From: a virus
Lineage: Duplodnaviria > Caudoviricetes
Strand: one strand, 5' to 3'
IMG/VR virus record: IMGVR_UViG_2895847146_000001
Coordinates: 53,959-117,958 of that record
DNA: 64,000 nucleotides
Shown: in pieces, positions 10,926-61,505 of the stretch
How the letters are laid out: each line of letters begins with the position of its first letter
How positions within the stretch are numbered: position 1 is the stretch's first letter
The notes under the pieces: generated by a model
Databases searched by the model: none
What the model saw: only the letters and a program-made list of their open reading frames with translations
Told to the model about the DNA's origin: nothing
Made by a program: the position numbers and the translations under genes

Positions 10926-10944
10926 AATGAAAATAAAATTGCAC

Positions 10945-33733: not shown

Positions 33734-34288
33734 TTACAGCACGAATTGGTCTACGACTTCCTTCCAGTTATTCACCCGGAAGAACGAGGGGTTGTTGACA
33801 GCCGCGTTGTGGCGGGCGCTGAACAGAATTCGAATGCCACAGAAGTTCTTCAGGTTGTGCTCGCCATCATCAATCAGGGCGCCACCGTGGAGCAGCGACT
33901 TGTCGTGCACCTCCATGTAGTCGGGCGAAAGGGTGCCGTACTTCAAGTCCAGAAAGCCGTGCTCAGCTAACCACAGGAGCTTGCGGCCAGCCATGTGCAC
34001 GTTGGTTGAGGTGGCAAAGACCACCCGAAAGCCCAGCTCACGCAACCGCGCCACACCTTCTACAGAACCCTCAATGGGCTGCACGCCGTCGTACAGGGTT
34101 TTGTCGTGGAGGTAGTTGTAGATTTTTTGGCCACACTCCGGCTTGACAAACGGAGTCATATCCCAGCCGGTCACGCCGGTTTTGTAGCACAGGTTGTCGT
34201 TGTAGTCGGCATTGTAGCGCCGTACCCACTCAGGGCCAAGGTCGGCTACTACGCCGTCCACATCACAGAAAATTACTTTTTCACTCAT
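33734..34288 (-). CDS. 5'(3')-deoxyribonucleotidase (NT5C, HAD)
   Basis: DVDGVVAD, K..WL..H and LIDD...N motifs. Confidence 0.9.
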   Translation of the reverse strand: MSEKVIFCDVDGVVADLGPEWVRRYNADYNDNLCYKTGVTGWDMTPFVKPECGQKIYNYLHDKTLYDGVQPIEGSVEGVARLRELGFRVVFATSTNVHMAGRKLLWLAEHGFLDLKYGTLSPDYMEVHDKSLLHGGALIDDGEHNLKNFCGIRILFSARHNAAVNNPSFFRVNNWKEVVDQFVL

Positions 34289-34316
34289 AAAACAGGGGGT
34301 TGGGTTGGTGAAGGGG

Positions 34317-34940
34317 TTATGCATAGCCGCGCATCAGCGCACGGGTATTGGGGTTGGAATCGTAGGCGCCAGAACCGCCGAGCAGGTTGAAGCCGCCTAC
34401 GCCGTTTACTTGGTTCTGGCCGGCCGTGCTGCCAAAATAGGCACCGGTATTGGCCAGACCGTCCACGGCGCCGAAGACATTGGTAGCCGAAGCCTGTTTG
34501 AGGGCGGCGCGGGTACGGCTGGCCGTGTCCTGGTCCGCCTTCTGGTAGGCAGCCTGTTGCAGCAAGCCCGCCGAAAGAGCACGGCGGCCCTGGGCCTGAT
34601 ACTGCTGGTTCTGCACGTTCAGGTTGGCCAGGCCCTGCTGCCGGCGAGCGTCGGCGGCGCCAATCGAGGCCATAATGTCGGACGAGCTGCCGCCAGCGCG
34701 TAGGGCTTGGCCCGCAACAGCGGCTTGATTCTGGGCCAGTTGGCCTTCCATCAGCCCGTAGCCGGGCATTTGGGCGTTGGCGGAGCCACGCAGCAGGGCC
34801 AGATTTTCCTTGGAGGCGGCCGGCTGAGTGTCCTCAACCTTCACCTTCTTGGCTTTCTGGCCTTGCAGAATGCCCTGGCCGAGCTTGAGTAGCTGGGGGG
34901 CGGCGGAAATGCCCGCGAGGGCTAAGAGCGGAAGCGGCAT
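34317..34940 (-). CDS. small ejection/internal virion protein
   Basis: Gly/Ala/Gln-rich with hydrophobic N-terminus, as in podovirus internal proteins. Confidence 0.7.
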   Translation of the reverse strand: MPLPLLALAGISAAPQLLKLGQGILQGQKAKKVKVEDTQPAASKENLALLRGSANAQMPGYGLMEGQLAQNQAAVAGQALRAGGSSSDIMASIGAADARRQQGLANLNVQNQQYQAQGRRALSAGLLQQAAYQKADQDTASRTRAALKQASATNVFGAVDGLANTGAYFGSTAGQNQVNGVGGFNLLGGSGAYDSNPNTRALMRGYA

Positions 34941-34947: not shown

Positions 34948-35015
34948 GAAAGATAGTAATTCTATCCCGAAAATCGAGATACTTTTTCTGAAATCTGTCC
35001 CGATTTTCGGAACAG
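34948..35015 (-). promoter_or_regulatory. promoter (TATCTTTC) with paired operators
   Basis: CTATCCCG-AAAAT-CGAGATAC at 34962; CTGTCCCG-ATTTT-CGGAACAG at 34995. Confidence 0.7.
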
Positions 35016-41869: not shown

Positions 41870-42799
41870 TTATTTATTCTTTTCGCGCTGGGCTACCGCT
41901 TTCTCGATAGCCTTCTTAATCGGCTCGTGGTTGGGCAGAATCAGGAAGTCCGCCATTGCATCCTCCACTTTCTGGCCCGGCAGCACGATGCACAGGAACT
42001 TGCGCTCAGGCAGCAATACCCACTGCGCCTGCTGGCGGTCATAGGCAATCACCTCGTGCTTCACGGCGTTGTCCACGAGCTTGAACAGGCGCTCCTCGTC
42101 AGCCTCGAACCGCTTGATAAGGGTTTCTGGGTCGCTCTCGGCCAGCGCCATGTAGTTGTTGCGCAATTCGCTGTCGTCGTCCTCCTTGAGGGTGCCCGCT
42201 TCCAGACGCTCGGTGATGTAGGCCGGCACCGATACGCCCACTTTGGGGGCCAGACGCACGAGCTGGGTCACGTCGGCCAGGATAATGGCCTCGTTGGCAA
42301 TGGCCACGTTCTTCTTACGCTTGAACAGGTCGGCGGCCGTCTTCTCGGGGCGAATCACCTCAAACATATAGCCGTCGGCGGGCTGGCTATGGGCCGGATT
42401 GCAGCAGTTCTTATTGTAGTTGCTGAACATGAGCCGATGGTAGAGGTCGGGCTGCCGGTTGGGAACCACCTCCACCTGGGCCATTGACGCCCGTTTGAAC
42501 TCGACCAGCAAGGGCTTGGCCGTCGGCGTTACCGGCCCCCCGAAGTAGGCCAGGCCCACATACTGACTTGTGCCGGGGTCGAGAATGTTTTCCACCAGGG
42601 GCAGGTTCGACCAGTTTTTGGTCACGTTGCGCTTGCTGGTGCCGTACATGCTGGATTCAATTTCCTGCATGGGTGAGCCCTTCTGGATGGCGCGGAAAAT
42701 AACCTTCTGGTTGGGGTTAATATCCTTAGGCAGCGAGTCGAGTAGATCCTGGCTAAAGTTGTTGTAGACCGCTTGCGGTACTTGGAATAGTTGAGTCAT
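41870..42799 (-). CDS. conserved protein downstream of the major capsid gene
   Basis: 309 aa; synteny with crAss-related capsid modules. Confidence 0.7.
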   Translation of the reverse strand: MTQLFQVPQAVYNNFSQDLLDSLPKDINPNQKVIFRAIQKGSPMQEIESSMYGTSKRNVTKNWSNLPLVENILDPGTSQYVGLAYFGGPVTPTAKPLLVEFKRASMAQVEVVPNRQPDLYHRLMFSNYNKNCCNPAHSQPADGYMFEVIRPEKTAADLFKRKKNVAIANEAIILADVTQLVRLAPKVGVSVPAYITERLEAGTLKEDDDSELRNNYMALAESDPETLIKRFEADEERLFKLVDNAVKHEVIAYDRQQAQWVLLPERKFLCIVLPGQKVEDAMADFLILPNHEPIKKAIEKAVAQREKNK

Positions 42800-42829
42800 G
42801 GGTTGTTGTGAAGGGGTTGGTTTGGGCGA

Positions 42830-42896
42830 GAAAGATACACATTCTATCTCGTTTTTCCAGATAGAAAAATTGGATTTGTCTGGAAAAGCGAGACAG
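42830..42896 (-). promoter_or_regulatory. promoter (TATCTTTC) with paired operators
   Basis: CTATCTCG-TTTTT-CCAGATAG at 42844; TTGTCTGG-AAAAG-CGAGACAG at 42876. Confidence 0.7.
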
Positions 42897-42925
42897 AAAA
42901 AAAGCCGACCCTATAAGAGCCGGCC
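42897..42925 (-). terminator. capsid operon terminator
   Basis: GGCCGGCTCT-TAT-AGGGTCGGC followed by TTTTTTT on the minus strand. Confidence 0.75.
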
Positions 42926-42927
42926 TT

Positions 42928-42957
42928 TCTCACCAAAACCCAACCCCTGTCGTTGGG
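42928..42957 (-). ncRNA. capsid 3'-UTR antisense element complementary to the terL leader
   Basis: CAACGACAGGGGTTGGGTTTTGGTGAGA is complementary to 52807-52833 on the terL mRNA. Confidence 0.6.
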
Positions 42958-42971
42958 AAGTTTAGGCGGGC

Positions 42972-44411
42972 TTAGGCAGCCAGCGCCTTGATTTTAATCA
43001 TTTTTCGGGTGTTCGTGATCTGGGGAACAACCTGCGTGAGCAGTTCCAGAGCCGTCTGGTCGCGGCCGGTGATGGCGCGGGGGAACGGGTCGAACTTGTA
43101 GCGGCGAATCGAGCCGTCAAACTCGGTGGTGTACTTCACCTCCAGGGTGTTGACGCTGATTTTGTTCTTGCGGCCGTTCTCGCTTACGTCTACCGATTGC
43201 CGCTTGGAAGGAATCAGGTAGCCGTCGTTGGGGAAGTTGTAGCCGTTGATACCGGTCAACTCGGGCAGGCTCAGCATGTCGGTCTGAATCAGACGGAAGG
43301 TGATGCCGCCGTAGACAATGGCCATTACGCCCAGGTCTACCATCTTCTGCTTGGGGTCGCCGTCACCGAAGTTGCTGTAGTCGATACCGGTCTGGCCGGT
43401 AGCACCGATAGCCTGGTTGAAGACTTTCTGCACGGCGCGGAACAGAGCCGAGCCCGCATAGAAGTCGTACACGTTGCCGCCGTTCACCGCGTCAATCTGG
43501 GCCACAATCAGGTCCAGGTCGGCCAGCGAGAAGGTGCCGACGGTGTAGCGGTACTCGTTACCCATCTTGTCGATGGCGGTATCCACGCCCAAGCACATGC
43601 GAACCGGCTCATTGGCTTCGTTCATCGTGAAGCCACCCGAACCGAACCAGATAGCGAGCAATTCCTTGATGCGGTGCTCAGCGCCCATTTCTACTTCCTG
43701 CTTGAAGTAGTAGCGGTTCTTGCCGGTCCAGTCAATAATCTCCACGGCGTTGGCGTCGCCGGTGGCGGCACGGTGGGTCTTGATGATCTGAGCCTGGTTG
43801 CGCCACTGCGTGGTGCTCTGCTCCAGCCCTTCGGTTGGGGCGTAGGTACCTTCCCCGAAGGCGTTGGAGTACACGAACAGCGGGGTGCCGCTGGTAATGT
43901 GGTCCTGAACGGCCTGGGTGATGTTTTCCGACGAGCCGGTGACGCCGCGCAGGGTGAACTGCGTGGTAGCGCCCGAGCCGGCCTTGATGCGGACAATACC
44001 CGTCGCGCCGTTCCGGAAGCGAATCAGGTCGTCCTTCATCAGGGACGTGCGAGCCACGGTGCCGCCGAGCGATTCGGTATCCAGGAACGAGTCGGCGGTG
44101 AGGGTAACGACCACTTCCGAAGCGGTGCCGGAGCCCACGATAGCGCCGATTTTCACGGGGCGGAACATGGGGCCTTGCTCGAAGGAGCGGACTTCCAGGT
44201 CTTTGGTGGTGCTTACCCGCTTGCTGGTTTCCAGCATGGCCAGCACGTCGCGCCAGTTGTAGTAGGGAGAAACCTCCGAAATGGCCTGACGCACAACCAG
44301 CGGCGCATTGTCGCTGAAATAGTCGTTCAGACCCATGAATTTGGTATCTACCCGGGGTACGGCAACTACGTTGTTGTCGAGGGTAGTAACGTTTACAAAA
44401 CCGTTAGGCAT
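42972..44411 (-). CDS. major capsid protein
   Basis: 479 aa after the scaffold gene; SNAFGEGT..P, NQAQIIK, E..H...E...WFG and GV...I features; followed by a terminator. Confidence 0.85.
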   Translation of the reverse strand: MPNGFVNVTTLDNNVVAVPRVDTKFMGLNDYFSDNAPLVVRQAISEVSPYYNWRDVLAMLETSKRVSTTKDLEVRSFEQGPMFRPVKIGAIVGSGTASEVVVTLTADSFLDTESLGGTVARTSLMKDDLIRFRNGATGIVRIKAGSGATTQFTLRGVTGSSENITQAVQDHITSGTPLFVYSNAFGEGTYAPTEGLEQSTTQWRNQAQIIKTHRAATGDANAVEIIDWTGKNRYYFKQEVEMGAEHRIKELLAIWFGSGGFTMNEANEPVRMCLGVDTAIDKMGNEYRYTVGTFSLADLDLIVAQIDAVNGGNVYDFYAGSALFRAVQKVFNQAIGATGQTGIDYSNFGDGDPKQKMVDLGVMAIVYGGITFRLIQTDMLSLPELTGINGYNFPNDGYLIPSKRQSVDVSENGRKNKISVNTLEVKYTTEFDGSIRRYKFDPFPRAITGRDQTALELLTQVVPQITNTRKMIKIKALAA

Positions 44412-44443
44412 GGTCTAGAAAAAGAGAGGTGTCGAAAAGTGGA

Positions 44444-45637
44444 TTAGTTGCCGATGCCGTTCTGCGCCGCAAACTGGCGGGCGAAGGCTTCGGGGCTGAA
44501 GGTGGTGCTGGCAGCGGAGGCGGTGGCCGTAGTGCCCGCGTTGGTGAGCGTATCCAGCTCGACATGCGGCGGCACGAGGTCTTGGCCGATTTTCACCGCG
44601 TTGGCGAACAGTTTGTTGCCTTGGGAGAAGACGGCACTGAGCAGGGCCAGATTCTCCAGGGAAACGGTTTTGCCGTCGGGGTAAACAAAGTTCTGGATGT
44701 GCGTCAGCGGGTCGCGCATTACCTGCCGGGCCAGTTCCGTTTCTTCCGGGGTACTCCCCGCGCTCAGCGTCACCTGCTTGCCGTCGGGTAGCTCTACCGT
44801 CAGGTCAAGGCCAGCGCCAATGAACGAATCCACGTTGGCGTAGTGCGAATCGAGCTGCGCCTGGATTTCGGGGGTAATGGTGGGCGCGGCGGCCGTCTGA
44901 TCCGACGAGGCCGTGGGCACCGATACCCCCGCAAGCAAGGCGCTGGTGCGCTCGTCGCGGTATGAAGTGAGTTCCTGGCGGTCCCGCTCTGCCTGCTTGT
45001 CCATCAACAGCTTGTCAGCGCGGTACTCGGCCGTTTCCTCGAAATCGGGGTGGTCGGGGTCAACACCCACGGCCGCGCCGAATTTTTCAGTAGCCCACTT
45101 GTTGAACCAGCCATCAGCCTCCTCGGCGTCATACTGCGGGTTCTTGCGGGCGAAGTTTTCGCGCATAGCCTGCAGCGCGTCCATCTTCGTGTAGTCTGTA
45201 TCAGCCAGCCGCAGGTACTCGCGGCGGGTTTCGGGGTCCGACAGCAGGGCCAGCGAGCGTTTGTGCTCGTCGGTCAACTGGTTCTGGCGCAGCTGCTCCG
45301 CTTGGGAGAGTTCAGCCGCCAACTCGTCGGCGGTCTTGTACTTGTCACCAAACTTGCTCGTCAGGTAGGCCGTCTCGTCAAAGGCGGTGGCCTGCGTGGT
45401 ATCGGTGCTCGTGCTGGCATCCGTGCCGGCGCCCGCTGTGGGTTCCGTGGCGGCGTCCGTGCTCGTCTTCTCGGCCGGGGCCGCAGCGGCGGCCGTCGAG
45501 GGAGCCGCCGAGTCGCTGCCGGTGGAGGCGTAGCTGCTGGCGAAATTCTGCGTAAAAGCGGTCAGTGCATCCGGCGTCGAAACGTCGGCGGTACTGGTGT
45601 CTGTCGCTAGATTTTGGGAGGTTGCTTCGTCGGCCAT
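44444..45637 (-). CDS. capsid scaffolding protein
   Basis: Acidic low-complexity N-terminus, DYTKMD motif, immediately upstream of the capsid gene. Confidence 0.75.
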   Translation of the reverse strand: MADEATSQNLATDTSTADVSTPDALTAFTQNFASSYASTGSDSAAPSTAAAAAPAEKTSTDAATEPTAGAGTDASTSTDTTQATAFDETAYLTSKFGDKYKTADELAAELSQAEQLRQNQLTDEHKRSLALLSDPETRREYLRLADTDYTKMDALQAMRENFARKNPQYDAEEADGWFNKWATEKFGAAVGVDPDHPDFEETAEYRADKLLMDKQAERDRQELTSYRDERTSALLAGVSVPTASSDQTAAAPTITPEIQAQLDSHYANVDSFIGAGLDLTVELPDGKQVTLSAGSTPEETELARQVMRDPLTHIQNFVYPDGKTVSLENLALLSAVFSQGNKLFANAVKIGQDLVPPHVELDTLTNAGTTATASAASTTFSPEAFARQFAAQNGIGN

Positions 45638-45671
45638 CGGAACACAGGGGGATTTGGTTCCGAAATTTCGT

Positions 45672-45707
45672 CTATCTTGATTTTCGAGATAGAAAACCGT
45701 ACCTTAG
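45672..45707 (+). promoter_or_regulatory. operator plus rightward -7 element in the divergent promoter region
   Basis: CTATCTTG-ATTTT-CGAGATAG followed by TACCTTAG. Confidence 0.65.
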
Positions 45708-45738
45708 ACGCACACATACCGTACAACAGCACAATTTC

Positions 45739-45924
45739 ATGGCCGAGGAGCGTCCCAAGAAGCGGGAGTACCACCGCAAAACAATATTTAAGGCGGAGTA
45801 CACGCCGGAGAGTGCGGCGGAGCGGCGGGCGTTTGCCCTGTTCGCCAAGCTAGACATGAGCCACCAAGCGGGCATCAAGCTGCTTATCAAGCAAGAGGCT
45901 GACCGTCAAGGCATACCGCAATAG
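45739..45924 (+). CDS. small basic, possibly RHH-like, regulator
   Basis: 61 aa; beta strand then two helices (DMSHQAGIKLLIKQEADRQGI). Confidence 0.55.
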   Translation: MAEERPKKREYHRKTIFKAEYTPESAAERRAFALFAKLDMSHQAGIKLLIKQEADRQGIPQ

Positions 45925-45983
45925 ATTGCACCCCCGCACCCCGAGATATTCCCTTTTAGACAACCACAGAAGCCGCCTAAGCC

Positions 45984-46466
45984 ATGTATACTGAAATCTG
46001 CAAAATCATACAAGCCGCGTTGTCGGGCGACAAGGCCAGCGCCGAAGCGTATGCTCGACTACTTGCTGAGAACCTGGATAAAGCTGGACAGCATACAGAG
46101 TCCAACCGAATTCTCCGCGCCCTTGGCGACCAAACCATCCAAGCAACAGCAGCCTCCCTTGACCAAAGTGTGGTTGCGATAGAGCATGCTCCATTCACCG
46201 TGTTACCAGACTGTCGCGCCCCGATTACAAAAGGGAGTATTACCCGCTTGGCGTCTACCTCTTTGCTCAACAACACAAATCCTTGGGTAGCAACCTGCGG
46301 CGTCTGCCATTGTACTGAAGATCTAGGCAAAGGTACGCTAACGCTGCCATCTGACCTCACCGGTCGGGGCTGGCTGAATAGCGAACGTCTAGGGTGGGTA
46401 TGCCCCGGCTGCCAGAAGTTCATGACCCCAGCCGACAATTGCTGGCTAACCGCCGAAAACCGCTAA
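45984..46466 (+). CDS. chimeric protein: AAA-ATPase-like N-terminal helical domain + Zn ribbon
   Basis: MYTEICKIIQAALSGDK..AYARLLAENL N-terminus; CGVCHC...CPGC; no Walker motifs. Confidence 0.6.
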   Translation: MYTEICKIIQAALSGDKASAEAYARLLAENLDKAGQHTESNRILRALGDQTIQATAASLDQSVVAIEHAPFTVLPDCRAPITKGSITRLASTSLLNNTNPWVATCGVCHCTEDLGKGTLTLPSDLTGRGWLNSERLGWVCPGCQKFMTPADNCWLTAENR

Positions 46467-46487
46467 GCCCTTCTAGTTTCTTCCCCC

Positions 46488-46946
46488 TTAACAGCAGAAC
46501 CCTAAGAACCATGAACCAGGAACGATTGAACCAGATACGGGAACGGTGTCAGAAGGCAAGCCTTGGCCCCTGGATGCCGGCCCCAACTGCGCCGAAGAAC
46601 AAGTTTCGGGTATACCCTCAATACCCGAACTATGGCAACCCGGCCCCCTTATTCCAGCCTAGCAATCATATCTGCACCATGAACAGCGGCGTGAACAGGG
46701 CAGTAGCACAATTGCAGGCTGATACCCTGTTTATTGCTGCTGCTCGGCAGGACATCCCCGACCTGCTAGCCGAGATAGACCGCCTACGGGCCTTGCTCCC
46801 CGCCTATGGCACTTGCCCGCGCTGTCACGGCACGAATCGGATGGCAGCCGCTGGAGAGTCTAGAGCCTGTGTCTCCTGTGCTGATGAGGCGTGGCATGCC
46901 CGTCAGACGCCCCCTCATCATCGTTAACAGCAGAACCCTAAGAACC
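46488..46946 (+). repeat. 23-bp direct repeat flanking one gene
   Basis: TTAACAGCAGAACCCTAAGAACC at 46488 and 46924. Confidence 0.85.
46511..46927 (+). CDS. Ead/Ea22-like protein with C-terminal Zn ribbon
   Basis: LNQIRERCQKASLGPW...FIAAARQDIPDLLAEIDRLR; CPRC..CVSC. Confidence 0.75.
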   Translation: MNQERLNQIRERCQKASLGPWMPAPTAPKNKFRVYPQYPNYGNPAPLFQPSNHICTMNSGVNRAVAQLQADTLFIAAARQDIPDLLAEIDRLRALLPAYGTCPRCHGTNRMAAAGESRACVSCADEAWHARQTPPHHR

Positions 46947-46953
46947 CTGAGTT

Positions 46954-47133
46954 ATGAACTACGCCGCTCACATCCTGCCAGGCCAAACCCTACCCGCCTG
47001 CAACCGCTGCCAGTACATCGCCCGAAGTGCCAATGTTGAATCCTGCCCGTATTGCGGCGGCAATTGGACGCACGATGTGACCCGGCCTGCTACCATATCC
47101 CCTTCATCGACTCCTTCAGAGCATGAACAATAA
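46954..47133 (+). CDS. small Zn-ribbon protein (59 aa; not in the ORF track)
   Basis: CNRC...CPYCGG. Confidence 0.6.
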   Translation: MNYAAHILPGQTLPACNRCQYIARSANVESCPYCGGNWTHDVTRPATISPSSTPSEHEQ

Positions 47134-47347
47134 ACTTCCGCCTGGGGCTCAGGCCGATATAGCGCGAGTGACGGGCCTTAGCCGTCAAGCTGTAAGCAAG
47201 GTGCTGCAAGGCAAATTCAAGAATGAGCAGGTCAGCCAACTAGCAGAAGAGTATGCTGCCCGCTACGCTACCCAAATCAGAGTCGGTCAATTCCGGCTAT
47301 TTATCAACAACCTCTCCGATGAGGCGCTAGCCACCTACTTAAAATGA
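47123..47347 (+). CDS. HTH DNA-binding protein
   Basis: QADIARVTGLSRQAVSKVLQG. Confidence 0.8.
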   Translation: MNNKLPPGAQADIARVTGLSRQAVSKVLQGKFKNEQVSQLAEEYAARYATQIRVGQFRLFINNLSDEALATYLK

Positions 47348-47643
47348 AAGAACCTGCCAAACTCATGACCCAGGCTGATATAAACGCCTCTGCGCCAATC
47401 ATTGCGTCCTTTATCTTCCCAGGGCAGGAAGTTGCGGAGTATAGTTCAGTTGAATTAACCGAGATAAGCGAGGCTATCAGCATTGTGCATCTGCGTCGGC
47501 CTGATCTTGCGCGAGTCATGCGGCGGTTTTTCAACGACATGAAGGCCGGGAAGGTCTTGCGAGAAACTAACGCCTTGAATCCGCCCCAGGGAGCCCCCGT
47601 AGGTTGTGCAGGGTGCGCCGGAAAGGAGGTGTATGGTGAGTAA
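47344..47643 (+). CDS. hypothetical protein
   Basis: Overlapping operon ORF. Confidence 0.5.
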   Translation: MKEPAKLMTQADINASAPIIASFIFPGQEVAEYSSVELTEISEAISIVHLRRPDLARVMRRFFNDMKAGKVLRETNALNPPQGAPVGCAGCAGKEVYGE

Positions 47644-47857
47644 GCCAACGAAACCGCAGTACACCTTAGCAGCTCGGTTATATGCCCTGTCACTGGTTAC
47701 TCATCTAGACTTGGATACTGAGAACGATGATTCTGAAATTATCAGGCAGTTGGCGATTGATAAAGCATTAGCCGCACTCGCTCGGCTAAAAGTTGACCCT
47801 GCCGAGTTGCTAAGCGAAGATGATTGCCTAAAAGTAGCCAGAAGGCTGAAGCCATGA
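47633..47857 (+). CDS. hypothetical protein
   Basis: Overlapping operon ORF. Confidence 0.55.
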   Translation: MVSKPTKPQYTLAARLYALSLVTHLDLDTENDDSEIIRQLAIDKALAALARLKVDPAELLSEDDCLKVARRLKP

Positions 47858-47903
47858 CCCTGCTTAGCAACCAAGAAGGCCGTGCCCAAAACCCACGTTT
47901 GGT

Positions 47904-48239
47904 TTAGCCAAACAAGCCAGCACCGGCCGGAGCCAGCTGCACCTTCTTGGTCGCAGCTGGCTTTTTTGCTTTCGGGACGGGCATAATGGCCCCGCCCTGC
48001 TCCTTCGGGGCCGGTACCCCTACCCCACCCTTGCGGGGCGCACTAAAGCGCGTGGCTCGCATGTGCGGCTGGCCGTCCACCCAGAACTCCTCTACGCCAA
48101 ACTGACTGCGGTAACACACCAAGTCCAGGGCCACCGCCTCCGCGAGCTGGTCGGCGGAGAGGTGGCGCTGGAAGGTTTGGCGCGTGTAGAGCTTGTCCTT
48201 TTCCAGGGGCAAGCCAGCTACCAGGGCGGCTAGGCTCAT
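47904..48239 (-). CDS. hypothetical protein
   Basis: ATGA overlap with the portal stop. Confidence 0.6.
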   Translation of the reverse strand: MSLAALVAGLPLEKDKLYTRQTFQRHLSADQLAEAVALDLVCYRSQFGVEEFWVDGQPHMRATRFSAPRKGGVGVPAPKEQGGAIMPVPKAKKPAATKKVQLAPAGAGLFG

Positions 48240-50647
48240 GCGGCGGCCGAGGTAGGTTCCGGGGCCAGGGCCGCCTCGCGCAGCTGCTCATCGGCCCGCT
48301 GCTGGCCACCCAACACCTGCTCGGTCAGCTTGTGCTCGACTTTCAGGTTTTCGCGGTCCGTCTTGCCCTGCTCCTGCACGCCCAGGGCGGTGAGCTTGGT
48401 TTGGTTGCCCAGCTCGCCCAGGTAGATAGTGGCCTCGGTCTGCTTCTCAATGGCACCCCACTGCGTCTCGCGGCGAAACTGCTCGATCTGCATGTTCTGC
48501 TCGAAGGTGGCCTGGGCCAATTGCATATCGGCCTGCGACTTGGCTTGCAGACTCTGGTTCTGCACGTCGCCGTTCTGCTGTTGCAGCTGCTGGCTTTCCT
48601 GCTGCAGGCGCTTGCGCCGGCGCTTGATACGGCGGGCCAACTCCCGGCTGGCCTTTTTCAGGTTGGGAATGCGGCGCACAAACAGGTAGTCTTCGAAGTC
48701 GATACCGTCGGGGCTGCCAGCCACCCCCTGCTGCAGGGCGAGCTTGGCCGTGTCGTACAAGTCCACCCACTCCTCGGGCGTGGGGCGGGGCTCAATACCG
48801 GTTGTGAAGTCGTAGCGAAAAAGGTCCGGATACGGGCCTACCTGCTTGCTGGCCCCTCCGGGTAAGCTCATCGTGCCCGTGACGGGCGAACGATGCTCTG
48901 TGAGCTTAATACGGCCCGCTAGGTTGCGGAATATTGTCTCATGTACGGACTCCTGGGCGCGGAACAGATACTTCAGCACGTTCTGGGTGCCCATCAGCGC
49001 CTGCTCCTGCACGCCCTTGCCCACGCCATCCTTGGGTGTGGCGGCCGAGGCCACGGCGTTGGCGCCGGTAATGACTTCGAGCAGCTGCATGGAATTCCAA
49101 AAGTCGTTCCAGTGCTGGCCCGCCGTGGTTGGCACGCCGCCCGGGTTTTTCACTACAGCCAGGCCCAGCGGCTCGTTGCTGTCGTTGACGCGCTTGCCGA
49201 ACGTGGTACCGGTTTCCAGGAAAAACTCGTAGGCTTCCTGCGCTGAGAGGGGCTTGCCGTCGGCGCCCTTCAGCGGAATGTCTTTCAGCACGTCCGGGTC
49301 GATGTTGAAGCCCTCGGGTACGTAGGTCTTCATATCGGCCCGCCACATGCGAATACTGCGCTCCATGTCGTTGACAATGGAAATGCAGTGGTCCACCACG
49401 CTGATGGCCTTGTTGCCTACCCGGCCGGCCACGTAGGCGGCAAACGGCAGGCGGGCCTTGAGCGGGTTGGCCAAGTCGCGGCCCTGCTCCAAGGACTTGC
49501 GGCAGTTATAGGCAATGTCCATCCCGACTACCAGCGTAGCCTCGTAGAGGTTGGTAATGGTGCGGCGCACCACGCGGCCTTTATCCGACTCGTTTTTGAA
49601 GCCAGCGGGCTTGCGGTAGGTTTTCGGGTTGCCCTTGCTCGTGGGCTTCACCTGCTGCACCTCGTCGTCGTCACTGAGGAAGAACACGCGCACTACCTGA
49701 ATGGTAGCCGTATCCTCTTTCAGGCCGATGGCCGGGTCTACGGTGCCCATGTTGCTGGTGAGCAGGCTGGCGGCGTGGGTTTCCAGGGCTTTCCACTGGT
49801 GCTGCTCCAGCCCTTTCAGCTTCGGGTCGAGGGCCTTGCCGGCTTCCACCTCGGAGCGTAGCTGCTCCAGGGTGATGTTTTCCAGGTAGGCACCCGCCCA
49901 CCAGTCGCGACAGTCGGCGTAGCGCGAGGTCAGCATCAGGGCCATATCGGGCGAAACGCGCACCACCGTGGGCGCCTGGCCGGGAATCTGCTTGTCGTGG
50001 AGCAGGCAGAGGCCGTGACGCAGCAACTGCTGGCGCAACTCGGCGGCCAGCTGCTTGTAGCGGCTGCGGTCCAGGCACAGGGCCAGCTTTTCCTCCAGGG
50101 CAATGGCGGCGTCCAGCTCGATGCTTTCCACCCACTCGCGCATTTCGTCCTCGTCGGCGGGCACCTGCTCGGGCAGGCCGTCCTGGCTGGGCCGCATGCC
50201 CATCTGGCGGGCGAACTGGCCGGCGTCCTGCCACTTCTCCATGTTGCGGATCTGGCGCTCAATTTCCTGCGCAGCCCGGGAGCCCGATACGCTGATGGTG
50301 GGGTCGTACTCGCGCTCCTCCAGCATGGCTTCCAGGGCGTGGAGCTTAATAGGCAGGATGGGCAGCGGGGACTGGTCTACGATTTGGCCGAGCTGCACCG
50401 GGTCGTTGGTCTTGCCCCGCTTGGTGCGGCGGTATTGCAACGTGTCCTGCACACCCTCGGCGTAGGTATCGAGGCGGGCGTAGTGGTCCCGGCCGCCGTA
50501 CCACATGGTGGAATTGTTGCGCAGCACGTCGCTGATGTAAGCGCAGGCGTTCTGCTTGATCCACTCCTGGGTTTTCTTCTTGGGATTTCGCTCGCTCCGG
50601 GAAGCGTAAGCAACGGCGTAGTTGGCGGTCAGGTCGAGGGACGGCAT
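48236..50647 (-). CDS. portal protein
   Basis: 803 aa directly after terL; YAEGVQD, PLPILP and ITGANA motifs; Gln-rich C-terminal barrel. Confidence 0.88.
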   Translation of the reverse strand: MPSLDLTANYAVAYASRSERNPKKKTQEWIKQNACAYISDVLRNNSTMWYGGRDHYARLDTYAEGVQDTLQYRRTKRGKTNDPVQLGQIVDQSPLPILPIKLHALEAMLEEREYDPTISVSGSRAAQEIERQIRNMEKWQDAGQFARQMGMRPSQDGLPEQVPADEDEMREWVESIELDAAIALEEKLALCLDRSRYKQLAAELRQQLLRHGLCLLHDKQIPGQAPTVVRVSPDMALMLTSRYADCRDWWAGAYLENITLEQLRSEVEAGKALDPKLKGLEQHQWKALETHAASLLTSNMGTVDPAIGLKEDTATIQVVRVFFLSDDDEVQQVKPTSKGNPKTYRKPAGFKNESDKGRVVRRTITNLYEATLVVGMDIAYNCRKSLEQGRDLANPLKARLPFAAYVAGRVGNKAISVVDHCISIVNDMERSIRMWRADMKTYVPEGFNIDPDVLKDIPLKGADGKPLSAQEAYEFFLETGTTFGKRVNDSNEPLGLAVVKNPGGVPTTAGQHWNDFWNSMQLLEVITGANAVASAATPKDGVGKGVQEQALMGTQNVLKYLFRAQESVHETIFRNLAGRIKLTEHRSPVTGTMSLPGGASKQVGPYPDLFRYDFTTGIEPRPTPEEWVDLYDTAKLALQQGVAGSPDGIDFEDYLFVRRIPNLKKASRELARRIKRRRKRLQQESQQLQQQNGDVQNQSLQAKSQADMQLAQATFEQNMQIEQFRRETQWGAIEKQTEATIYLGELGNQTKLTALGVQEQGKTDRENLKVEHKLTEQVLGGQQRADEQLREAALAPEPTSAAA

Positions 50648-52783
50648 TTAGTTATTGAAGTAGTTGCGTGGGTCGAAAGCGGCCAACGACGGCAGCGTGT
50701 CAGCAGCAGGGGCAGACTTAAAGGGCTGGTAGCGGGTAATGTCGCAGAGGGCGTAGCCGCCGCTCACCGATAAGTCAAATTTAGTGGTTTTATTCGGGTC
50801 AAACTGAAGTATCTGATTCAGCGTGCGGGGGAAGGGCATCCGGCGCGGGTCGTAGGGGATGCCGTCGTCGTTTATTCCAACTTCCCCCCGGCTGTTCTTG
50901 CTCAGGCTCGTGCCGACGTACTGACTCACGTACTTTACCCATTCTTCGGTATAGCGGCCAATCATCAGTGGCGAGGAGGCGGCCCCGGCGTTTTTCTGGT
51001 TCTTGGTGTGCTCGGTCTGCGTCGAGGCCGGGCGCTTGGAAATAAAGGCTTCGTAGCCCCGCCCCATCAGTTCCTCTTTCAGGGCCGGGCGGTTGGTTTC
51101 CGGGAAGATGGAGCAGCCAAAGAAGTGAATAGCCTTGATTACGTCCTCGAAGTACACGTTCGGGTCGCTCATCCGTTCCGCGTATTCCAGAATCTGGCTG
51201 TGGCTGGGCCAGTAGTGGGGCGCGTCGTCGGGCAACGCCTCCATGTCCTCATCGAACTTGTAGAACAGCGTCAGGGCCGTGAGCGAGGCCCCGGAGAGCT
51301 TTTCCGGGTCGCGGTGGTCCACGGGGTCAGCGCCGGAGCCGAAGCGGTGGGTGTTCAGCGGCTTCCACTTCACCACCTCCCCGTACTTGGTTTTGATACG
51401 GCCGGTGGCCTCCACCTGGTTGAGCCAGGAATCCGGGGGCAGCCAGGAAATGTAGAAGCGGCCCGCCACCTCGTCCTGCATGGCCTTGACCTTCGTTTTA
51501 CTCTCGTCGGTCCAGTCCAGGCGGTAGCGCCGGTAGATGGGCTGGTCGAGCTGGGCCAGGTGGCTCAAAACGTGGCCGACGTGCTCGGCGTTGACCACGC
51601 AATCCACCTTGACGCTGGGCGACAGGGCTTCCTCGATGGTGAACGGGTTGGCCCGCTTCTCTTTCAGGAGCAGAATTGGGTCATGGGCCACGGAGCGGCG
51701 CCGGGCCAGAAAGTGCTCCTTGCCAGCGGCGGTGTCGCGGCCGTACTCGTCCACCTTGAACCCTTCGTAGGCCGGAATGAACAGGCGAAACAGGCCCGAA
51801 GCGGTGCGAATCAGCGGGTTTTTCGGGTCGTAGCCGTTGGGGCCAATGAGCGTCTGGTTCGAGTTGTTCCAGAATTGGGCGCACATGCCCACCGAGTCGT
51901 CGTCGTCCTCGTCGGAAGTGGTGGTATTGGCACCCTTGCCCACAATTTCGCCGTCGGGCTCGAACTGCTTGCTGACAACAGACCAGCGGTTATAGGAGTT
52001 GAATTTCTGCTTCTTGCCTACCTCGTCGTTGAGGAAGAAGGTCACGCCGTCACCGTCGAGGGCGGTTTCCGTCGATTCCTTCCAGAAAATCTTGCTTTTC
52101 AGGCCCTTTACCCGGTCAGGCATGTTGGCCGCGCCCTTCTTCTGGTTGACAGGCGTATCAAAGACGATTTCGTACTTGGGCCGCGAGCTGCCGGCCATCT
52201 GCGGGGCGAACCACGGGGCCTCCTTCAGCGCGTCCACGGCCGGAATCACTTCCTTGCGGTACACGGTTTCCTCGGCGGATTCCTCGTTTTTCGACTGAAT
52301 GCCGAAACGGAAGAAGGCAATGCGGGTCGCGCCCTCCACCCCGATAGAGGCAAAGCGGGACGTTTTGCCGTCGCGGCGCCGGGTCTGCAGGTAGCCGCCC
52401 AGGCAGTTCGGGCTGGTCATAACGTGCTCCCACCACCAGTAGAAACGGCGGTTGTGCTCCCGGTAGTCCGGCTTTTTGCTACCGTAGCGGTGGTAGTTCA
52501 GGTAGAAGTAGTGCCGGCCGGTGATGTAGGTCGGCACGCCGTCGTTGTAGAACCACACGCCGTTTTCGCGACGGTCCCACTCCTGGTCTTCCAGCTGCTG
52601 CTGCTTGTAGCGGGGCCACGCCAGATATTCCTCGGGCGTGGGCAGCGCGGTATGGGCAAACTTCTGGTCTTTCTTCTTGGTAATGTGGCCGTTCAGGAAC
52701 TCGGAACGGTCAGGCACAACAGGGCTACCGAGGGTGTATTCCCCGATAACGTCCCACATTCTGCCGTCTTTCTCTTTCTTCAT
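50648..52783 (-). CDS. terL: terminase large subunit
   Basis: YITGRHYFYLN, RRDGKT (Walker A-like), LNDEVGK (Walker B) and nuclease GADPVD motifs. Confidence 0.93.
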   Translation of the reverse strand: MKKEKDGRMWDVIGEYTLGSPVVPDRSEFLNGHITKKKDQKFAHTALPTPEEYLAWPRYKQQQLEDQEWDRRENGVWFYNDGVPTYITGRHYFYLNYHRYGSKKPDYREHNRRFYWWWEHVMTSPNCLGGYLQTRRRDGKTSRFASIGVEGATRIAFFRFGIQSKNEESAEETVYRKEVIPAVDALKEAPWFAPQMAGSSRPKYEIVFDTPVNQKKGAANMPDRVKGLKSKIFWKESTETALDGDGVTFFLNDEVGKKQKFNSYNRWSVVSKQFEPDGEIVGKGANTTTSDEDDDDSVGMCAQFWNNSNQTLIGPNGYDPKNPLIRTASGLFRLFIPAYEGFKVDEYGRDTAAGKEHFLARRRSVAHDPILLLKEKRANPFTIEEALSPSVKVDCVVNAEHVGHVLSHLAQLDQPIYRRYRLDWTDESKTKVKAMQDEVAGRFYISWLPPDSWLNQVEATGRIKTKYGEVVKWKPLNTHRFGSGADPVDHRDPEKLSGASLTALTLFYKFDEDMEALPDDAPHYWPSHSQILEYAERMSDPNVYFEDVIKAIHFFGCSIFPETNRPALKEELMGRGYEAFISKRPASTQTEHTKNQKNAGAASSPLMIGRYTEEWVKYVSQYVGTSLSKNSRGEVGINDDGIPYDPRRMPFPRTLNQILQFDPNKTTKFDLSVSGGYALCDITRYQPFKSAPAADTLPSLAAFDPRNYFNN

Positions 52784-52833
52784 GGTGTCGTTGCGAATTC
52801 AGGGCGCAACGACAGGGGTTGGGTCTGGTGAGA
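52784..52833 (-). promoter_or_regulatory. structured terL 5' leader (toehold + 10-bp hairpin abutting the ATG)
   Basis: TCTCACCAGACCCAACCCC-TGTCGTTGCG-CCCTGAATT-CGCAACGACA-CC-ATG. Confidence 0.7.
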
Positions 52834-53070
52834 CTACTTGCGGCGTATTGCCTGAAAGGCTAGGCCCATTGCCATTACAAGGTCACTCTTAGGGTATAAG
52901 TGGCTGTATTTCCTCTCGATGCGGTCAGCTAATTCGGTCTTGCCAGCACGCCGACATTTGACTTCGAGCCGCAAAGCTTTGCGGGCTATATCTTTCGCTG
53001 GAGAAATTTGGTGGTAGTTGCAGAGTTCGTCTAGCAAGCCGGGGAATGGCAGCATGGGTTTTATTGACAA
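52834..53070 (-). CDS. small hypothetical protein
   Basis: Packed ORF. Confidence 0.55.
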   Translation of the reverse strand: MSIKPMLPFPGLLDELCNYHQISPAKDIARKALRLEVKCRRAGKTELADRIERKYSHLYPKSDLVMAMGLAFQAIRRK

Positions 53071-53501
53071 GGCGTGAGTGTGTAGGCCATTTCTGGCAGA
53101 TCTTTCAGTCCCTCGCGTGACGGGTGTGGGTCGTGAACAATTTCCATGTTGCGGCCGTGGGCAACAACTGCGTGGTGCATGATAGTGCCATCTGGGTACG
53201 TCCTTGGGGAAACGCCTGAAGCAACATAGTAGCCATCCAACAGCTCCAGTGTACCCGGCGCCATTTCTCGGCCCTCCCGAATAGCTTTTAGGTTGACGGT
53301 ATCCAACTCATACCCCTGCTCGCGAAACCAATGAATCAGATCCAAAAACCAGCCGGGGCCAGCCTCTGTCAAATCCTCATTGTAAGTAAATAGTGGCAGA
53401 TCGTTCGGCTTCTCTTTATCTAGAACACAGGCAAATGCTGTCCTCAAACAGTCACCAATGCCGTGCTCAGCAACCGTGTATAGTTGAGTTAATGGCTTCA
53501 T
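53061..53501 (-). CDS. conserved phage protein with putative Cys/His (papain-like) motif
   Basis: GDCLRTAFACVL...HHAVV...HDPHPS. Confidence 0.7.
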   Translation of the reverse strand: MKPLTQLYTVAEHGIGDCLRTAFACVLDKEKPNDLPLFTYNEDLTEAGPGWFLDLIHWFREQGYELDTVNLKAIREGREMAPGTLELLDGYYVASGVSPRTYPDGTIMHHAVVAHGRNMEIVHDPHPSREGLKDLPEMAYTLTPCQ

Positions 53502-57761: not shown

Positions 57762-57828
57762 GAAAGATACGAATTCTGTCTTGATTTACGATATAGAAAA
57801 ACAAATTTTGTCTCGATTTTCAAGATAA
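57762..57828 (-). promoter_or_regulatory. promoter (TATCTTTC) with paired operators
   Basis: CTGTCTTG-ATTTA-CGATATAG at 57776; TTGTCTCG-ATTTT-CAAGATAA at 57808. Confidence 0.7.
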
Positions 57829-57923
57829 AGAAAGAAGCACCTCCGGCTCAGCCAGGGGTGCTTCTACAAAAGGGCGGAGCCTTTTAAAATATATTTGTTT
57901 TTTAATGTTCCAACTGGCAAAAG

Positions 57924-61438: not shown

Positions 61439-61505
61439 CAAAGGTAAGAATCCTATCTTGAAAGTCAAGACAGAAACGAAAATTATTTCTCGAAATTCGA
61501 GACAG
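61439..61505 (-). promoter_or_regulatory. promoter (TACCTTTG) with paired operators
   Basis: CTATCTTG-AAAGT-CAAGACAG at 61453; ATTTCTCG-AAATT-CGAGACAG at 61485. Confidence 0.72.

What the first reader, a model, noticed from the sequence alone, without database searches (positions are those of the whole stretch)
42928..52833. Capsid 3' UTR is antisense to a hairpin-locked terminase leader: candidate natural toehold switch coupling TerL translation to capsid expression
Seen: the whole 50-nt gap before terL (52784-52833, minus strand) reads TCTCACCAGACCCAACCCC-TGTCGTTGCG-CCCTGAATT-CGCAACGACA-CC-ATG. This is an unpaired 19-nt toehold followed by a perfect 10-bp hairpin ending 2 nt before the start codon. 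Ten kb away, between the capsid stop codon and its terminator (42928-42955, same strand), the RNA reads CAACGACAGGGGTTGGGTTTTGGTGAGA. It is complementary to the toehold and to 8 of the 10 nt in the 5' strand of the hairpin: 18 perfect pairs, one G-U, one bulge, then 8 more pairs. The trigger folds on itself as CCCAAC-GACAGGG-GTTGGG. Established: Bacteroidota mostly lack SD sequences and need an unstructured initiation region, so such a hairpin should repress translation. Inference: capsid mRNA, or a 3'-UTR-derived sRNA, opens the hairpin and switches on TerL only once capsid transcripts are abundant, timing DNA packaging. Alternatives are long-range pairing within one transcript, or an inverted DNA repeat bounding a 10-kb invertible segment.
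Basis: partly seen in the sequence, partly recalled or inferred. Interest (0 to 1): 0.92.

Follow-up and report, generated by a model that had tools for sequence, protein, structure and literature searches.

The report
Capsid mRNA tail matches terminase leader
In a prophage of a Bacteroidota bacterium, the untranslated tail of the capsid mRNA is an almost perfect antisense copy of the leader in front of the DNA-packaging (terminase) gene, which could let one mRNA switch on the other, but no experiment or close relative yet shows that it does.

Summary
The 50-nt terL leader (52784-52833, minus strand) has 19 unpaired nt, then a 10-bp hairpin ending 2 nt before the ATG. The capsid 3' UTR (42928-42955) can form 27 pairs with it: 18 perfect, one G-U beside a bulge, then 8 more. 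The pair is unique in the 5.94-Mb genome and beyond chance. Cofolding favours the duplex by about 22 kcal/mol.

Three things change the reading.
1. The 3' UTR element is an antisense copy of a leader motif shared by at least five phage leaders. A third copy in the next gene's leader (42812-42834) pairs with it in cis, closing a 190-nt structure (z = -7.4).
2. A GGUUGG core lies just behind the capsid stop codon in 4 of 6 distantly related prophages, which suggests the element itself is functional.
3. The terL hairpin and its complement appear in no relative: 0 of 39 loci show complementarity, 2 of 102 leaders are as structured, and the closest TerL is 62% identical.

No RNA data were available. 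The toehold-like activation of TerL is therefore feasible but untested (about 0.3-0.35). Rivals are a duplicated leader cassette without function, or a purely cis structure. The scan has not noted this same feature on other DNA; one loosely parallel note exists (e1-3538325).

The parts
52807..52833 (-). Site A: terL leader stretch complementary to the capsid 3' UTR. It comprises the 19-nt unpaired 'toehold' (52815-52833) plus the first 8 nt of the hairpin's 5' arm.
   Evidence: Read. Unique in the genome.
52786..52814 (-). Leader hairpin: 10-bp stem (5' arm 52805-52814, 3' arm 52786-52795) with a 9-nt loop, ending 2 nt before the terL ATG.
   Evidence: -14.2 kcal/mol alone. Start region -35..+15 is -14.4 kcal/mol, 4th of 47 in the phage; 2 of 102 relatives are as structured.
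52780..52809 (-). Possible 9-codon upstream ORF. It starts at a TTG inside the 5' arm, and its TGA overlaps the terL ATG (ATGA).
   Evidence: Read directly. No evidence of use; the TTG itself lies in the stem.
50648..52783 (-). terL, large terminase subunit, 711 aa.
   Evidence: phrog_6681, E = 4.8e-48. The first ATG is supported by the conserved K-D/G-G-R residues at the N-terminus in relatives.
52834..53501 (-). Two small ORFs (146 aa and 78 aa) between the p205 gene and terL. They are absent at this place in the G132 prophage, where the p205 homolog directly precedes terL.
   Evidence: (phrog_5845 for the 146-aa ORF).
42928..42955 (-). Site B: the 'trigger' or anti-leader element in the capsid 3' UTR. 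It contains the GGUUGG core and can self-fold as a 6-bp stem with a 7-nt loop (42939-42957).
   Evidence: The GGUUGG core behind the capsid stop is shared with 3 of 5 related prophages.
42895..42927 (-). Intrinsic-terminator-like hairpin and U-run that ends the capsid transcript, directly 3' of site B.
   Evidence: stable stem followed by seven U.
42812..42834 (-). Site C: leader of the next gene (p309, 41870-42799). It is a third member of the repeat family, 3 edits from the 24-nt complement of site B, and pairs with B in cis.
   Evidence: window; the only site within 3 edits in the whole genome. B:C is the closing helix of the 191-nt intergenic fold (-71.8 kcal/mol, z = -7.40, 0 of 200 shuffles).
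42842..42898 (.). Two copies of the phage's dispersed palindrome (42842-42866 and about 42875-42898), between the terminator and the p309 leader. Candidate operator and promoter cassette.
   Evidence: the repeat finder families D1/D2; fold.
42972..44411 (-). Major capsid protein gene, 479 aa.
   Evidence: phrog_13704, E = 1e-11. Foldseek top 7 hits are VP1 and phicrAss001 capsid entries (the model is of low confidence).
44444..45694 (-). 397-aa gene upstream of the capsid gene (scaffold-like by position). Its hairpin-forming leader and a palindrome cassette lie at 45670-45694. This is probably the start of a separate capsid transcription unit.
   Evidence: That it is a separate unit is inferred, not shown.

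Best explanation
The capsid mRNA of this prophage carries a G/U-rich 'anti-leader' element between its stop codon and its terminator. The element is the antisense of the C/A-rich leader motif used in front of several phage genes. Its core (GGUUGG) is kept behind the capsid stop codon in distantly related prophages, so it probably acts as RNA by base pairing with leaders.

In this phage the element has been extended into a 27-bp match to the terL leader. The proposed sequence of events is:
1. Pairing starts on the unpaired 19 nt of the leader.
2. It runs 8 nt into the 5' arm of the hairpin that abuts the terL start codon.
3. The hairpin can then no longer form, which frees the last 23 nt of the leader and the AUG.
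4. TerL translation rises when capsid mRNA (or a fragment of its 3' end) is abundant.

Shown here: the sequences, their uniqueness, the predicted structures and energies, and the conservation of the core.

Inferred: that both RNAs meet, that the hairpin represses translation, that pairing activates rather than destabilises, and that this times DNA packaging.
For: - A 27-bp complement with an 18-nt exact block, unique in the genome.
- The single substitution is a G-U pair on the mRNA strand; on the other strand it would be a C-A mismatch (read).
- The complement stops inside the 5' arm and leaves the loop and 3' arm alone. The 3' arm repeats the first 8 nt of the trigger, so the two compete for the same partner.
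- Cofold is -72.0 against -50.1 kcal/mol for the separate RNAs.
- Site B matches A better (27 pairs, no mismatch) than it matches its neighbour C (one mismatch, one G-U, one bulge, about 22 pairs).
- The terL start region is unusually structured.
- The host lacks SD sequences. In F. johnsoniae, structure at the start region tunes initiation (PMC6847099, abstract and passages).
- GGTTGG lies 6-26 nt behind the capsid stop in 4 of 6 related prophage loci, although it occurs only 1-5 times per 20-25 kb of coding strand. None of 123 other ORFs has it within 60 nt of its stop.
- It is the most shared hexamer behind capsid genes (4 of 5 loci), against at most 2-3 of 5 behind five other orthologous genes. 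The capsids are only 27-48% identical.
- The layout is seed, then hairpin(s), then terminator, in all four.
- The element's targets are enriched in leaders: AACCCCT is in 5 of 47 leaders where 0.24 is expected. Trigger against the 46 other leaders: mean of the five best duplexes -29.3 against -23.9 kcal/mol for shuffled triggers, 0 of 200 shuffles as good.
Against: - No relative has the terL hairpin or the complement. G132 has a 31-nt unstructured leader. G036 has a 6-nt gap and G267 a 3-nt gap. L009 has about 3 nt after a stop codon. L010 has an ATGA overlap.
- 0 of 39 relatives with both regions fall in the top 5% of their own controls. All relatives are distant, so covariation could not be tested.
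- No RNA or DNA reads were available.
- Enrichment of targets in leaders is also expected if site B is simply a flipped member of the leader family. This phage does duplicate leaders: a 23-nt exact direct repeat precedes two + strand ORFs.
- Host leaders in general are C/U-rich, and TCTCAC is their most enriched hexamer, so part of the similarity among leaders is compositional.
- In the predicted fold of the terminated capsid 3' end, much of the trigger is itself paired.
- The AUG and the two preceding nt are not inside the hairpin.
- The effect of start-region structure in Bacteroidota is described as subtle (PMC6847099).
- TerL is needed in small amounts, so a constitutive damper would be explanation enough for the hairpin.
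Confidence: 0.33

Rival explanations
1. Duplicated leader cassette with no regulatory role. The phage reuses short promoter-leader cassettes. Site B is a flipped copy lying in the palindromic terminator/promoter region behind the capsid gene. Its close match to the terL leader comes from a recent copying or gene-conversion event between family members. The terL hairpin is just a constitutive translation damper for a protein needed in small amounts.
For: - Three family members exist (A, B, C), with looser copies in front of the 34288, 38787, 40252 and 56716 starts.
- Another pair of leaders is a 23-nt exact duplicate.
- Another promoter region (29.3 kb) also carries an inverted copy of its own box on the far side of the palindrome.
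- Related phages also use similar C/A-rich leaders (L010), and host leaders favour TCTCAC.
- The A-B arrangement is found in no relative.
Against: - A 28-nt copy in inverted orientation 9.85 kb away, with no flanking similarity, has no obvious mechanism.
- B shares states with A that C lacks, plus 7 further nt, so it is not simply C's mirror image.
- The repeat ends exactly where strand invasion of the hairpin would need it to end.
- The GGUUGG core behind the capsid stop is kept in phages whose capsids are 27-48% identical, which a neutral relic would not be.
Confidence: 0.3
2. Cis-acting structure only. Site B exists to pair with the p309 leader (site C) on transcripts that read through the capsid terminator. 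This would make an extended hairpin that hides the p309 start region or creates a double-strand RNase site, as in lambda sib retroregulation. Transcripts from p309's own promoter would lack B and be translated. On this view the match to the terL leader is a by-product of A and C being related leaders.
For: - The 191-nt intergenic region folds at -71.8 kcal/mol, z = -7.40, with B:C as the closing helix around the terminator and the two palindromes.
- C is the only sequence in the genome within 3 edits of B's complement, and it lies about 90 nt away.
- In G132 the same intergenic region closes with a different 8-bp helix between the capsid 3' UTR and the p309-homolog leader (z = -4.47).
- In G267 the 3' UTR box and the next gene's leader are again complementary in short blocks (by eye).
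Against: - B pairs better with A than with C.
- In G036 and G272 the GGUUGG box stays behind the capsid stop although other DNA now separates it from the next structural gene. The box therefore goes with the capsid mRNA end, not with a neighbouring leader.
- The 8-bp helix in G132 could be chance (roughly 0.04 by my estimate; not computed by a tool).
Confidence: 0.2
3. Pairing happens but is negative or processing-related. A 27-bp RNA duplex is a substrate for a double-strand-specific RNase. Capsid 3' UTR binding would lead to cleavage in the terL leader. This would either destabilise terL mRNA or cut it free of the upstream ORFs, and other leaders with the motif next to their AUG would be blocked.
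For: - Duplex length and stability.
- In several other leaders the motif lies 0-12 nt from the AUG, where pairing would cover the start region.
- mRNA-mRNA pairs bound by RNase III are known in S. aureus (PMC9217812, abstract).
Against: Nothing here tells the sign of the effect. The extension into the hairpin arm is not needed for simple cleavage or blocking.
Confidence: 0.1
4. DNA-level element. The two copies are ends of an invertible 9.85-kb segment, or paired binding sites for a DNA-binding protein that brackets the head-gene module.
For: A 27/28 inverted repeat brackets terL through the capsid gene. The phage is rich in palindromic protein-binding-like sites.
Against: - Inversion would cut terL and portal from their upstream operon.
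- Gene order and orientation are the same in G132, G036, G267 and G272.
- None of the 18 ORFs scanned between 41.1 and 54.1 kb has a recombinase or invertase domain.
- The one substitution is RNA-compatible on the coding strand.
- No reads were available to test for two orientations.
Confidence: 0.06

Closest known systems
Synthetic toehold switches (de novo riboregulators; original paper recalled, not read; review PMC10132225, passages read)
   Same: An unpaired 5' stretch followed by a hairpin next to the start codon. A trigger RNA is complementary to the unpaired stretch and to the 5' part of the stem, so branch migration opens the hairpin.
   Different: In the designed switches the ribosome-binding site sits in the loop and the AUG in the stem. 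Here there is no SD at all, the AUG and 2 nt before it are outside the stem, the trigger invades 8 of 10 stem pairs, and the trigger is the tail of an mRNA that is partly folded itself. Function is untested.
Anti-antisense activation by bacterial small RNAs (DsrA/RprA/ArcZ on rpoS, RNAIII on hla; recalled, no paper read here)
   Same: A trans RNA pairs with the upstream strand of an inhibitory leader hairpin and frees the start region.
   Different: Those act with Hfq in Proteobacteria, or as a dedicated RNA in Staphylococcus, with shorter imperfect pairing. Here the duplex is 27 bp, the host is a Bacteroidota, no chaperone is known, and both partners are phage late mRNAs.
Regulatory mRNA 3' UTRs and 3' UTR-derived small RNAs (vigR 3' UTR of S. 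aureus, PMC9217812, abstract read; CisR acting on a CTX-phi mRNA, PMC13250501, search listing only)
   Same: The regulatory element lies between a stop codon and the terminator of a protein-coding mRNA and acts by mRNA-mRNA pairing. vigR promotes expression of its targets.
   Different: None of these links two structural-gene mRNAs of one phage. Processing, stability and targets are unknown here.
Lambda sib retroregulation (recalled)
   Same: Sequence on both sides of a terminator forms an extended hairpin only on read-through transcripts. The B:C helix around the capsid terminator has that layout.
   Different: sib controls the upstream gene (int) through RNase III. Here the helix includes the leader of the downstream gene, and no cleavage is shown.
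Phage T4 start-region hairpins (PMC3014915, section 29 passages read): gene e and others are silenced on early transcripts by a hairpin; genes 38 and 25 use a hairpin to bring the SD and AUG together
   Same: A phage leader hairpin at the start codon sets translation. It can be inhibitory or, as a bridge, stimulatory.
   Different: T4 relieves the inhibition by starting late transcripts inside the hairpin, not by a trans RNA. No promoter is seen inside or just upstream of the terL hairpin (by eye). There is no SD to bridge.
Site-specific DNA inversion systems (Gin/Hin/Cin; recalled)
   Same: Short inverted repeats flank a DNA segment.
   Different: No invertase gene nearby, a segment of essential head genes, and constant orientation in relatives.

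Membership tests
Toehold-type / anti-antisense translational activator | A cis hairpin that occludes the translation start region | tested here: inconclusive
   A 10-bp hairpin of -14.2 kcal/mol covers -31 to -3, but the AUG and -1/-2 are free. Whether it blocks a Bacteroidota 30S subunit cannot be computed.
Toehold-type / anti-antisense translational activator | An unpaired stretch 5' of the hairpin that is complementary to the trigger | tested here: met
   19 nt are complementary over their full length. They are predicted mostly unpaired; only a weak 4-bp local helix appears in the minimum-energy fold.
Toehold-type / anti-antisense translational activator | Trigger complementarity continues into the 5' arm of the stem, so the stem is displaced | tested here: met
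   8 of 10 arm nucleotides are covered. The cofold shows the hairpin replaced by the intermolecular duplex, a net gain of 21.9 kcal/mol.
Toehold-type / anti-antisense translational activator | Trigger RNA is made and meets the target; translation rises with the trigger | not testable with these tools
   No sequencing run was listed. Needs reporters and RNA mapping.
Toehold-type / anti-antisense translational activator | Pairing kept, by covariation, in relatives | tested here: not met
   0 of 39 relatives show leader/3' UTR complementarity above their own controls. All relatives are 52% TerL identity or less, so this is a weak test.
3' UTR-borne base-pairing regulator | Lies between the stop codon and the intrinsic terminator of an mRNA | tested here: met
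3' UTR-borne base-pairing regulator | Seed conserved among relatives | tested here: met
   The GGTTGG core lies behind the capsid stop in 4 of 6 prophage loci, and after 0 of 123 other ORFs. G036, G267 and G272 form one subclade (capsids 39-48% identical), so this amounts to about two independent lineages.
3' UTR-borne base-pairing regulator | Stable processed RNA species, and a target effect | not testable with these tools
   No RNA data.
sib-like read-through hairpin | An extended helix formed by sequences on both sides of a terminator | tested here: met
   The B:C closing helix; fold z = -7.40, 0 of 200 shuffles.
sib-like read-through hairpin | RNase III cleavage of read-through RNA only | not testable with these tools
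   No RNA data.
Invertible DNA segment | Inverted repeats at both ends | tested here: met
   A 27/28 match.
Invertible DNA segment | A site-specific recombinase gene in or beside the segment | tested here: not met
   No recombinase domain in the 18 ORFs scanned against Pfam. PHROGs scan of 10 of them gave none.
Invertible DNA segment | Both orientations present in reads or among relatives | tested here: not met
   Same order and orientation in G132, G036, G267 and G272. Reads were not available.
Known RNA families (Rfam 15) | A match above the gathering score | tested here: not met
   Only 3 sub-threshold matches (E = 0.076-0.76), all on the palindromic region 42827-42933.

The most novel reading that the evidence does not exclude
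The tail of the capsid mRNA is a master 'anti-leader' riboregulator of a clade of Bacteroidota podophages. Its conserved GGUUGG seed would pair with the CCAACC-type leaders of several phage mRNAs. Leaders that carry the motif next to the AUG would be damped. In this phage the tail would also open a hairpin-locked terL leader by toehold-mediated strand displacement. The amount of the most abundant late mRNA would then set the translation of the packaging enzyme and other virion genes, in a phylum that has no SD-based initiation and no Hfq-type sRNA paradigm.
Probability: 0.2. Interest if true: 0.85.

Novelty: new variant of a known kind. Interest (0 to 1): 0.6.

Why it matters
If the pairing works as drawn, it would be a natural example of the exact logic that synthetic biologists designed as the toehold switch. 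It would be built from two structural-gene mRNAs of one phage and would tie packaging-enzyme synthesis to capsid expression.

It would also give a testable case of trans RNA control of translation in Bacteroidota, where initiation does not use SD pairing and post-transcriptional regulators are poorly known.

The conserved GGUUGG box behind capsid genes is a separate lead that can be tested in several prophages at once.

If instead the match is a by-product of leader-cassette duplication, the locus is an ordinary, if neat, piece of phage mosaicism.

Tried and rejected
**Closer relatives**
- Single-protein scans of genome contigs and viral contigs found no relative.
- The 5.8-billion-protein search gave a best TerL identity of 62% (P0002).
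- Profile scans gave 80 + 80 + 4 loci, nearly all about 30% identical marine phages.
- Genus and family genome searches gave 2 and 4 other prophages at 36-49% identity.
- Named phages reach about 26% identity in the 12 records listed; all 87 matching records are below 60%.
- The exact 16-mer core occurs in 16 viral contigs. All are chance matches with no flanking similarity and no related protein.

**Expression and inversion reads**
- None was listed, and no RNA holder was listed.

**Known RNA families**
- None found.

**Dispersed-repeat idea**
- Rejected. Neither the hairpin nor the toehold recurs in the genome.

**Idea that leaders pair with the 16S rRNA 3' tail, with the box as a mimic of it**
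- The host 16S tail reads GGCUGG, not GGUUGG, at the relevant place. Dropped.

**Idea that CCCCUG is a host-wide initiation signal**
- Not enriched in host leaders: 31 against 30 in the control.

**General test of 'capsid 3' UTR complementary to all leaders' in 40 loci**
- 12 of 40 loci had p of 0.05 or less. In the AT-rich marine phages this is driven by A/T runs of terminators and leaders, so I do not use it.

**Test of 3' UTR against next-gene-leader pairing across relatives**
- Only 3 loci qualified, and the start of one was misassigned. Not used.

**Upstream ORF**
- Its TTG lies inside the stem, so it does not obviously relieve the hairpin. Kept only as a listed part.

**Capsid identification**
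- A sequence search against the PDB and a tblastn search against named phages found nothing. The fold search did, on a low-confidence model.

**Failed or partial calls**
- A fuzzy-regex script timed out with no output. It was replaced by a bit-parallel edit-distance scan.
- One script stopped with an error at L176 after printing three loci. L176 was covered.

**Supplements**
- Supplementary files of papers were not opened.

Full report
**What is there**

The window is part of a 5.94-Mb bacterial genome (contig C7). The host carries 133 type-IX-secretion C-terminal domains. Its gene leaders are C/U-rich, G-poor and virtually free of SD sequences: AGGAGG occurs in 7 of 3213 leaders.

The region is a prophage of the Flavobacterium/Cellulophaga podophage kind, with TerL about 26% identical to named phages. 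On the minus strand lie these genes:
- p205, a 146-aa ORF and a 78-aa ORF;
- terL (50648-52783, phrog_6681) and portal (48236-50647, phrog_6547), then a 111-aa ORF;
- a roughly 2.2-kb stretch whose ORFs and base skews point to the + strand;
- a 397-aa gene and the capsid gene (42972-44411);
- p309 and p241.

The capsid call rests on phrog_13704 and on a fold search whose seven best hits are capsid entries of VP1 and phicrAss001 (E = 3.6e-7 to 7.3e-6). The model itself is poor, with pLDDT 51.

The 50 nt between the stop of the 78-aa ORF and the terL ATG read as the finding says: 19 nt, a 10-bp hairpin with a 9-nt loop, CC, then ATG. The hairpin alone is -14.2 kcal/mol, and the 91-nt region folds with z = -3.24.

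Between the capsid stop and a strong terminator lies a 28-nt stretch that can form 27 pairs with the leader: an 18-nt exact block, a G-U next to one bulged U, then 8 pairs.

The core 17-mer occurs nowhere else in the genome. The only significant non-self match of the leader in the genome is this partner (E = 0.003; next best 0.73). Exact inverted repeats of 17 nt or more occur at just two loci in the window, where Markov simulations give a mean of 0.25 17-mer pairs. So this is not chance.

Cofolding replaces the hairpin with the intermolecular duplex: -72.0 against -50.1 kcal/mol for the two RNAs apart.

**The trigger is not private to terL**

A scan for the complement of site B found a third copy, site C, in the leader of p309, about 90 nt downstream of B on the same strand. 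C differs by 3 edits in 24 nt and is the only such site in the whole genome.

The 191-nt capsid-p309 intergenic region folds at -71.8 kcal/mol (z = -7.40, 0 of 200 shuffles). B:C forms the closing helix around the terminator and two copies of a palindrome that recurs 12 times in the window.

Looser versions of the same leader motif sit in front of other start codons. AACCCCT is in 5 of 47 leaders, out of 7 occurrences on 53 kb of minus strand, where 0.24 would be expected. The trigger also pairs better with the 46 other leaders than shuffled triggers do (mean of the five best duplexes: 0 of 200 shuffles as good).

Site B is therefore the antisense of a leader family. Among the three close copies, B shares with A three states and a 7-nt extension that C lacks. 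There is thus a specific A-B relationship on top of the family resemblance.

**Relatives**

No close relative exists in any collection I could reach.

I tested 102 other distinct terL leaders from prophages, metagenomes and viral contigs. Their start regions average -5.3 kcal/mol (sd 3.9). Only 2 are as structured as this one at -14.4 kcal/mol.

In 39 loci with both a terL leader and a capsid 3' UTR, none shows complementarity in the top 5% of its own controls. The window's pair ranks 0 of 148. The prophages and contigs closest to the window look like this:
- G132 (47-49% TerL identity): a 31-nt unstructured leader.
- L009 (52%): about 3 nt after a stop codon.
- G036 and G267 (36-37%): gaps of 6 and 3 nt.
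- L010 (34%): an ATGA overlap.

In G132 the p205 homolog directly precedes terL, so the 146-aa and 78-aa ORFs are an insertion in the window's phage.

**A conserved core**

GGTTGG is rare on the coding strand of these prophages: 2, 3, 1 and 5 copies per 20-25 kb. Even so, one copy lies 6-26 nt behind the capsid stop in the window, G036, G267 and G272. It is absent there in G132 and L010.

None of 123 other ORFs in the six loci has the hexamer within 60 nt of its stop. It is the hexamer most shared behind capsid genes (4 of 5 loci); behind five other orthologous genes no hexamer is shared by more than 2-3.

The capsids of G036, G267 and G272 are 39-48% identical to each other and 27-29% identical to the window's. 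Neutral non-coding sequence should therefore not be conserved. In G036 and G272 other DNA now separates the capsid terminator from the next structural gene, yet the box stays. The layout is box, small hairpin(s), then terminator in all four.

The complementary CCAACC sits in 2-5 leaders per locus. This speaks for a function of the 3' UTR element as RNA. It does not by itself show that terL is the target.

**Weighing**

For a functional A:B pairing:
- the length and near-perfection of the match;
- its discrete ends, one at the stop codon of the upstream ORF and the other 8 nt inside the stem;
- the G-U-compatible substitution on the mRNA strand;
- competition between the 3' arm and the trigger for the same 8 nt;
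- the unusual structure of this start region;
- the conserved core of the trigger.

Against it:
- no conservation of the pair;
- no RNA evidence;
- a phage that demonstrably duplicates leaders (a 23-nt exact direct repeat before two + strand ORFs);
- a good cis partner for B next door;
- a predicted self-fold of the trigger;
- an AUG that is not itself paired;
- the modest ('subtle') effect of start-region structure reported for F. johnsoniae (PMC6847099, passages read).

A constitutive damper is explanation enough for the hairpin alone, since TerL is needed in small amounts. A T4-like bridging role is also conceivable (PMC3014915, section 29).

Pairing within one long transcript is less likely. 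The capsid gene pair has its own palindrome cassette at 45670-45694, and + strand ORFs lie in between. That reading is inferred, not shown.

DNA inversion is unlikely. Orientation is constant in four relatives, and no recombinase domain was found in the 18 ORFs scanned.

**Verdict**

The toehold-switch reading is physically sound and remains the most attractive single mechanism, but it is one of three live explanations. I put it at about one third.

It is a new variant of known kinds: anti-antisense activation and regulatory mRNA 3' UTRs (PMC9217812, abstract). It is not a new category. A search of the paper library for phage-encoded or 3' UTR-derived RNAs and for natural toehold-like activators listed no case of one phage structural mRNA controlling another. 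I read only listings and abstracts there, so this is not proof of absence.

Noticed in passing
window 42928-42955; L008 14212-14240; L175 11736-11765; L176 12496-12525: A GGUUGG-containing G/U-rich box lies 6-26 nt behind the capsid stop codon in 4 of 6 related prophages. Their capsids are only 27-48% identical. None of 123 other ORFs has the hexamer within 60 nt of its stop. It looks like a conserved 3' UTR element.
   Followed up: partly
window 9202-9258, 10903-10927, 20489-20513, 29351-29381, 34957-34981, 42842-42898, 45670-45694, 57774-57830, 61451-61507, 62159-62183: A dispersed palindrome (TTCTATCTCG, 5 nt, CGAGATAGAA and variants) occurs in 12 copies, often as pairs 32 nt apart. Each is followed by a T-rich box and a leader in front of minus-strand gene blocks. 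These are candidate operator-plus-promoter cassettes of the phage. At 29.3 kb and 42.8 kb the symmetry extends to an inverted copy of the box itself.
   Followed up: partly
window 46488-46510 and 46924-46946: A 23-nt exact direct repeat, each copy just upstream of the ATG of a + strand ORF in the 45.9-47.7 kb cassette. These are duplicated leaders.
   Followed up: partly
window 52834-53501: The 146-aa (phrog_5845) and 78-aa ORFs lie between p205 and terL here. In the G132 prophage the p205 homolog abuts terL. Homologs of the 146-aa ORF (G036) and the 78-aa ORF (G272, other strand) lie elsewhere in their prophages. This is a small mobile gene pair.
   Followed up: partly
window 34286-34324: The gene listed as 33734-34324 more likely starts at the ATG at 34288. 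That ATG is preceded by a copy of the leader motif (CACCAACCCAACCCCCTGT).
   Followed up: no
window 45638-45662: The leader of the 397-aa gene upstream of the capsid gene forms a 6-bp hairpin abutting its ATG. Its loop shows CCCCCUGU, which is complementary to the 7-nt loop of the trigger's own hairpin at the other end of the same presumed mRNA. This is a possible 5'-3' kissing contact.
   Followed up: no
L007 12530-12735 (G132 prophage): The capsid-to-next-gene intergenic region also folds strongly (z = -4.47). It has an 8-bp helix between the capsid 3' UTR and the next gene's leader, of different sequence from the window's B:C helix.
   Followed up: partly
own genome, leaders of 3213 long ORFs: Host leaders are pyrimidine-rich and G-poor, and TCTCAC is the most enriched hexamer (22-fold). 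SD-like hexamers are depleted.
   Followed up: partly
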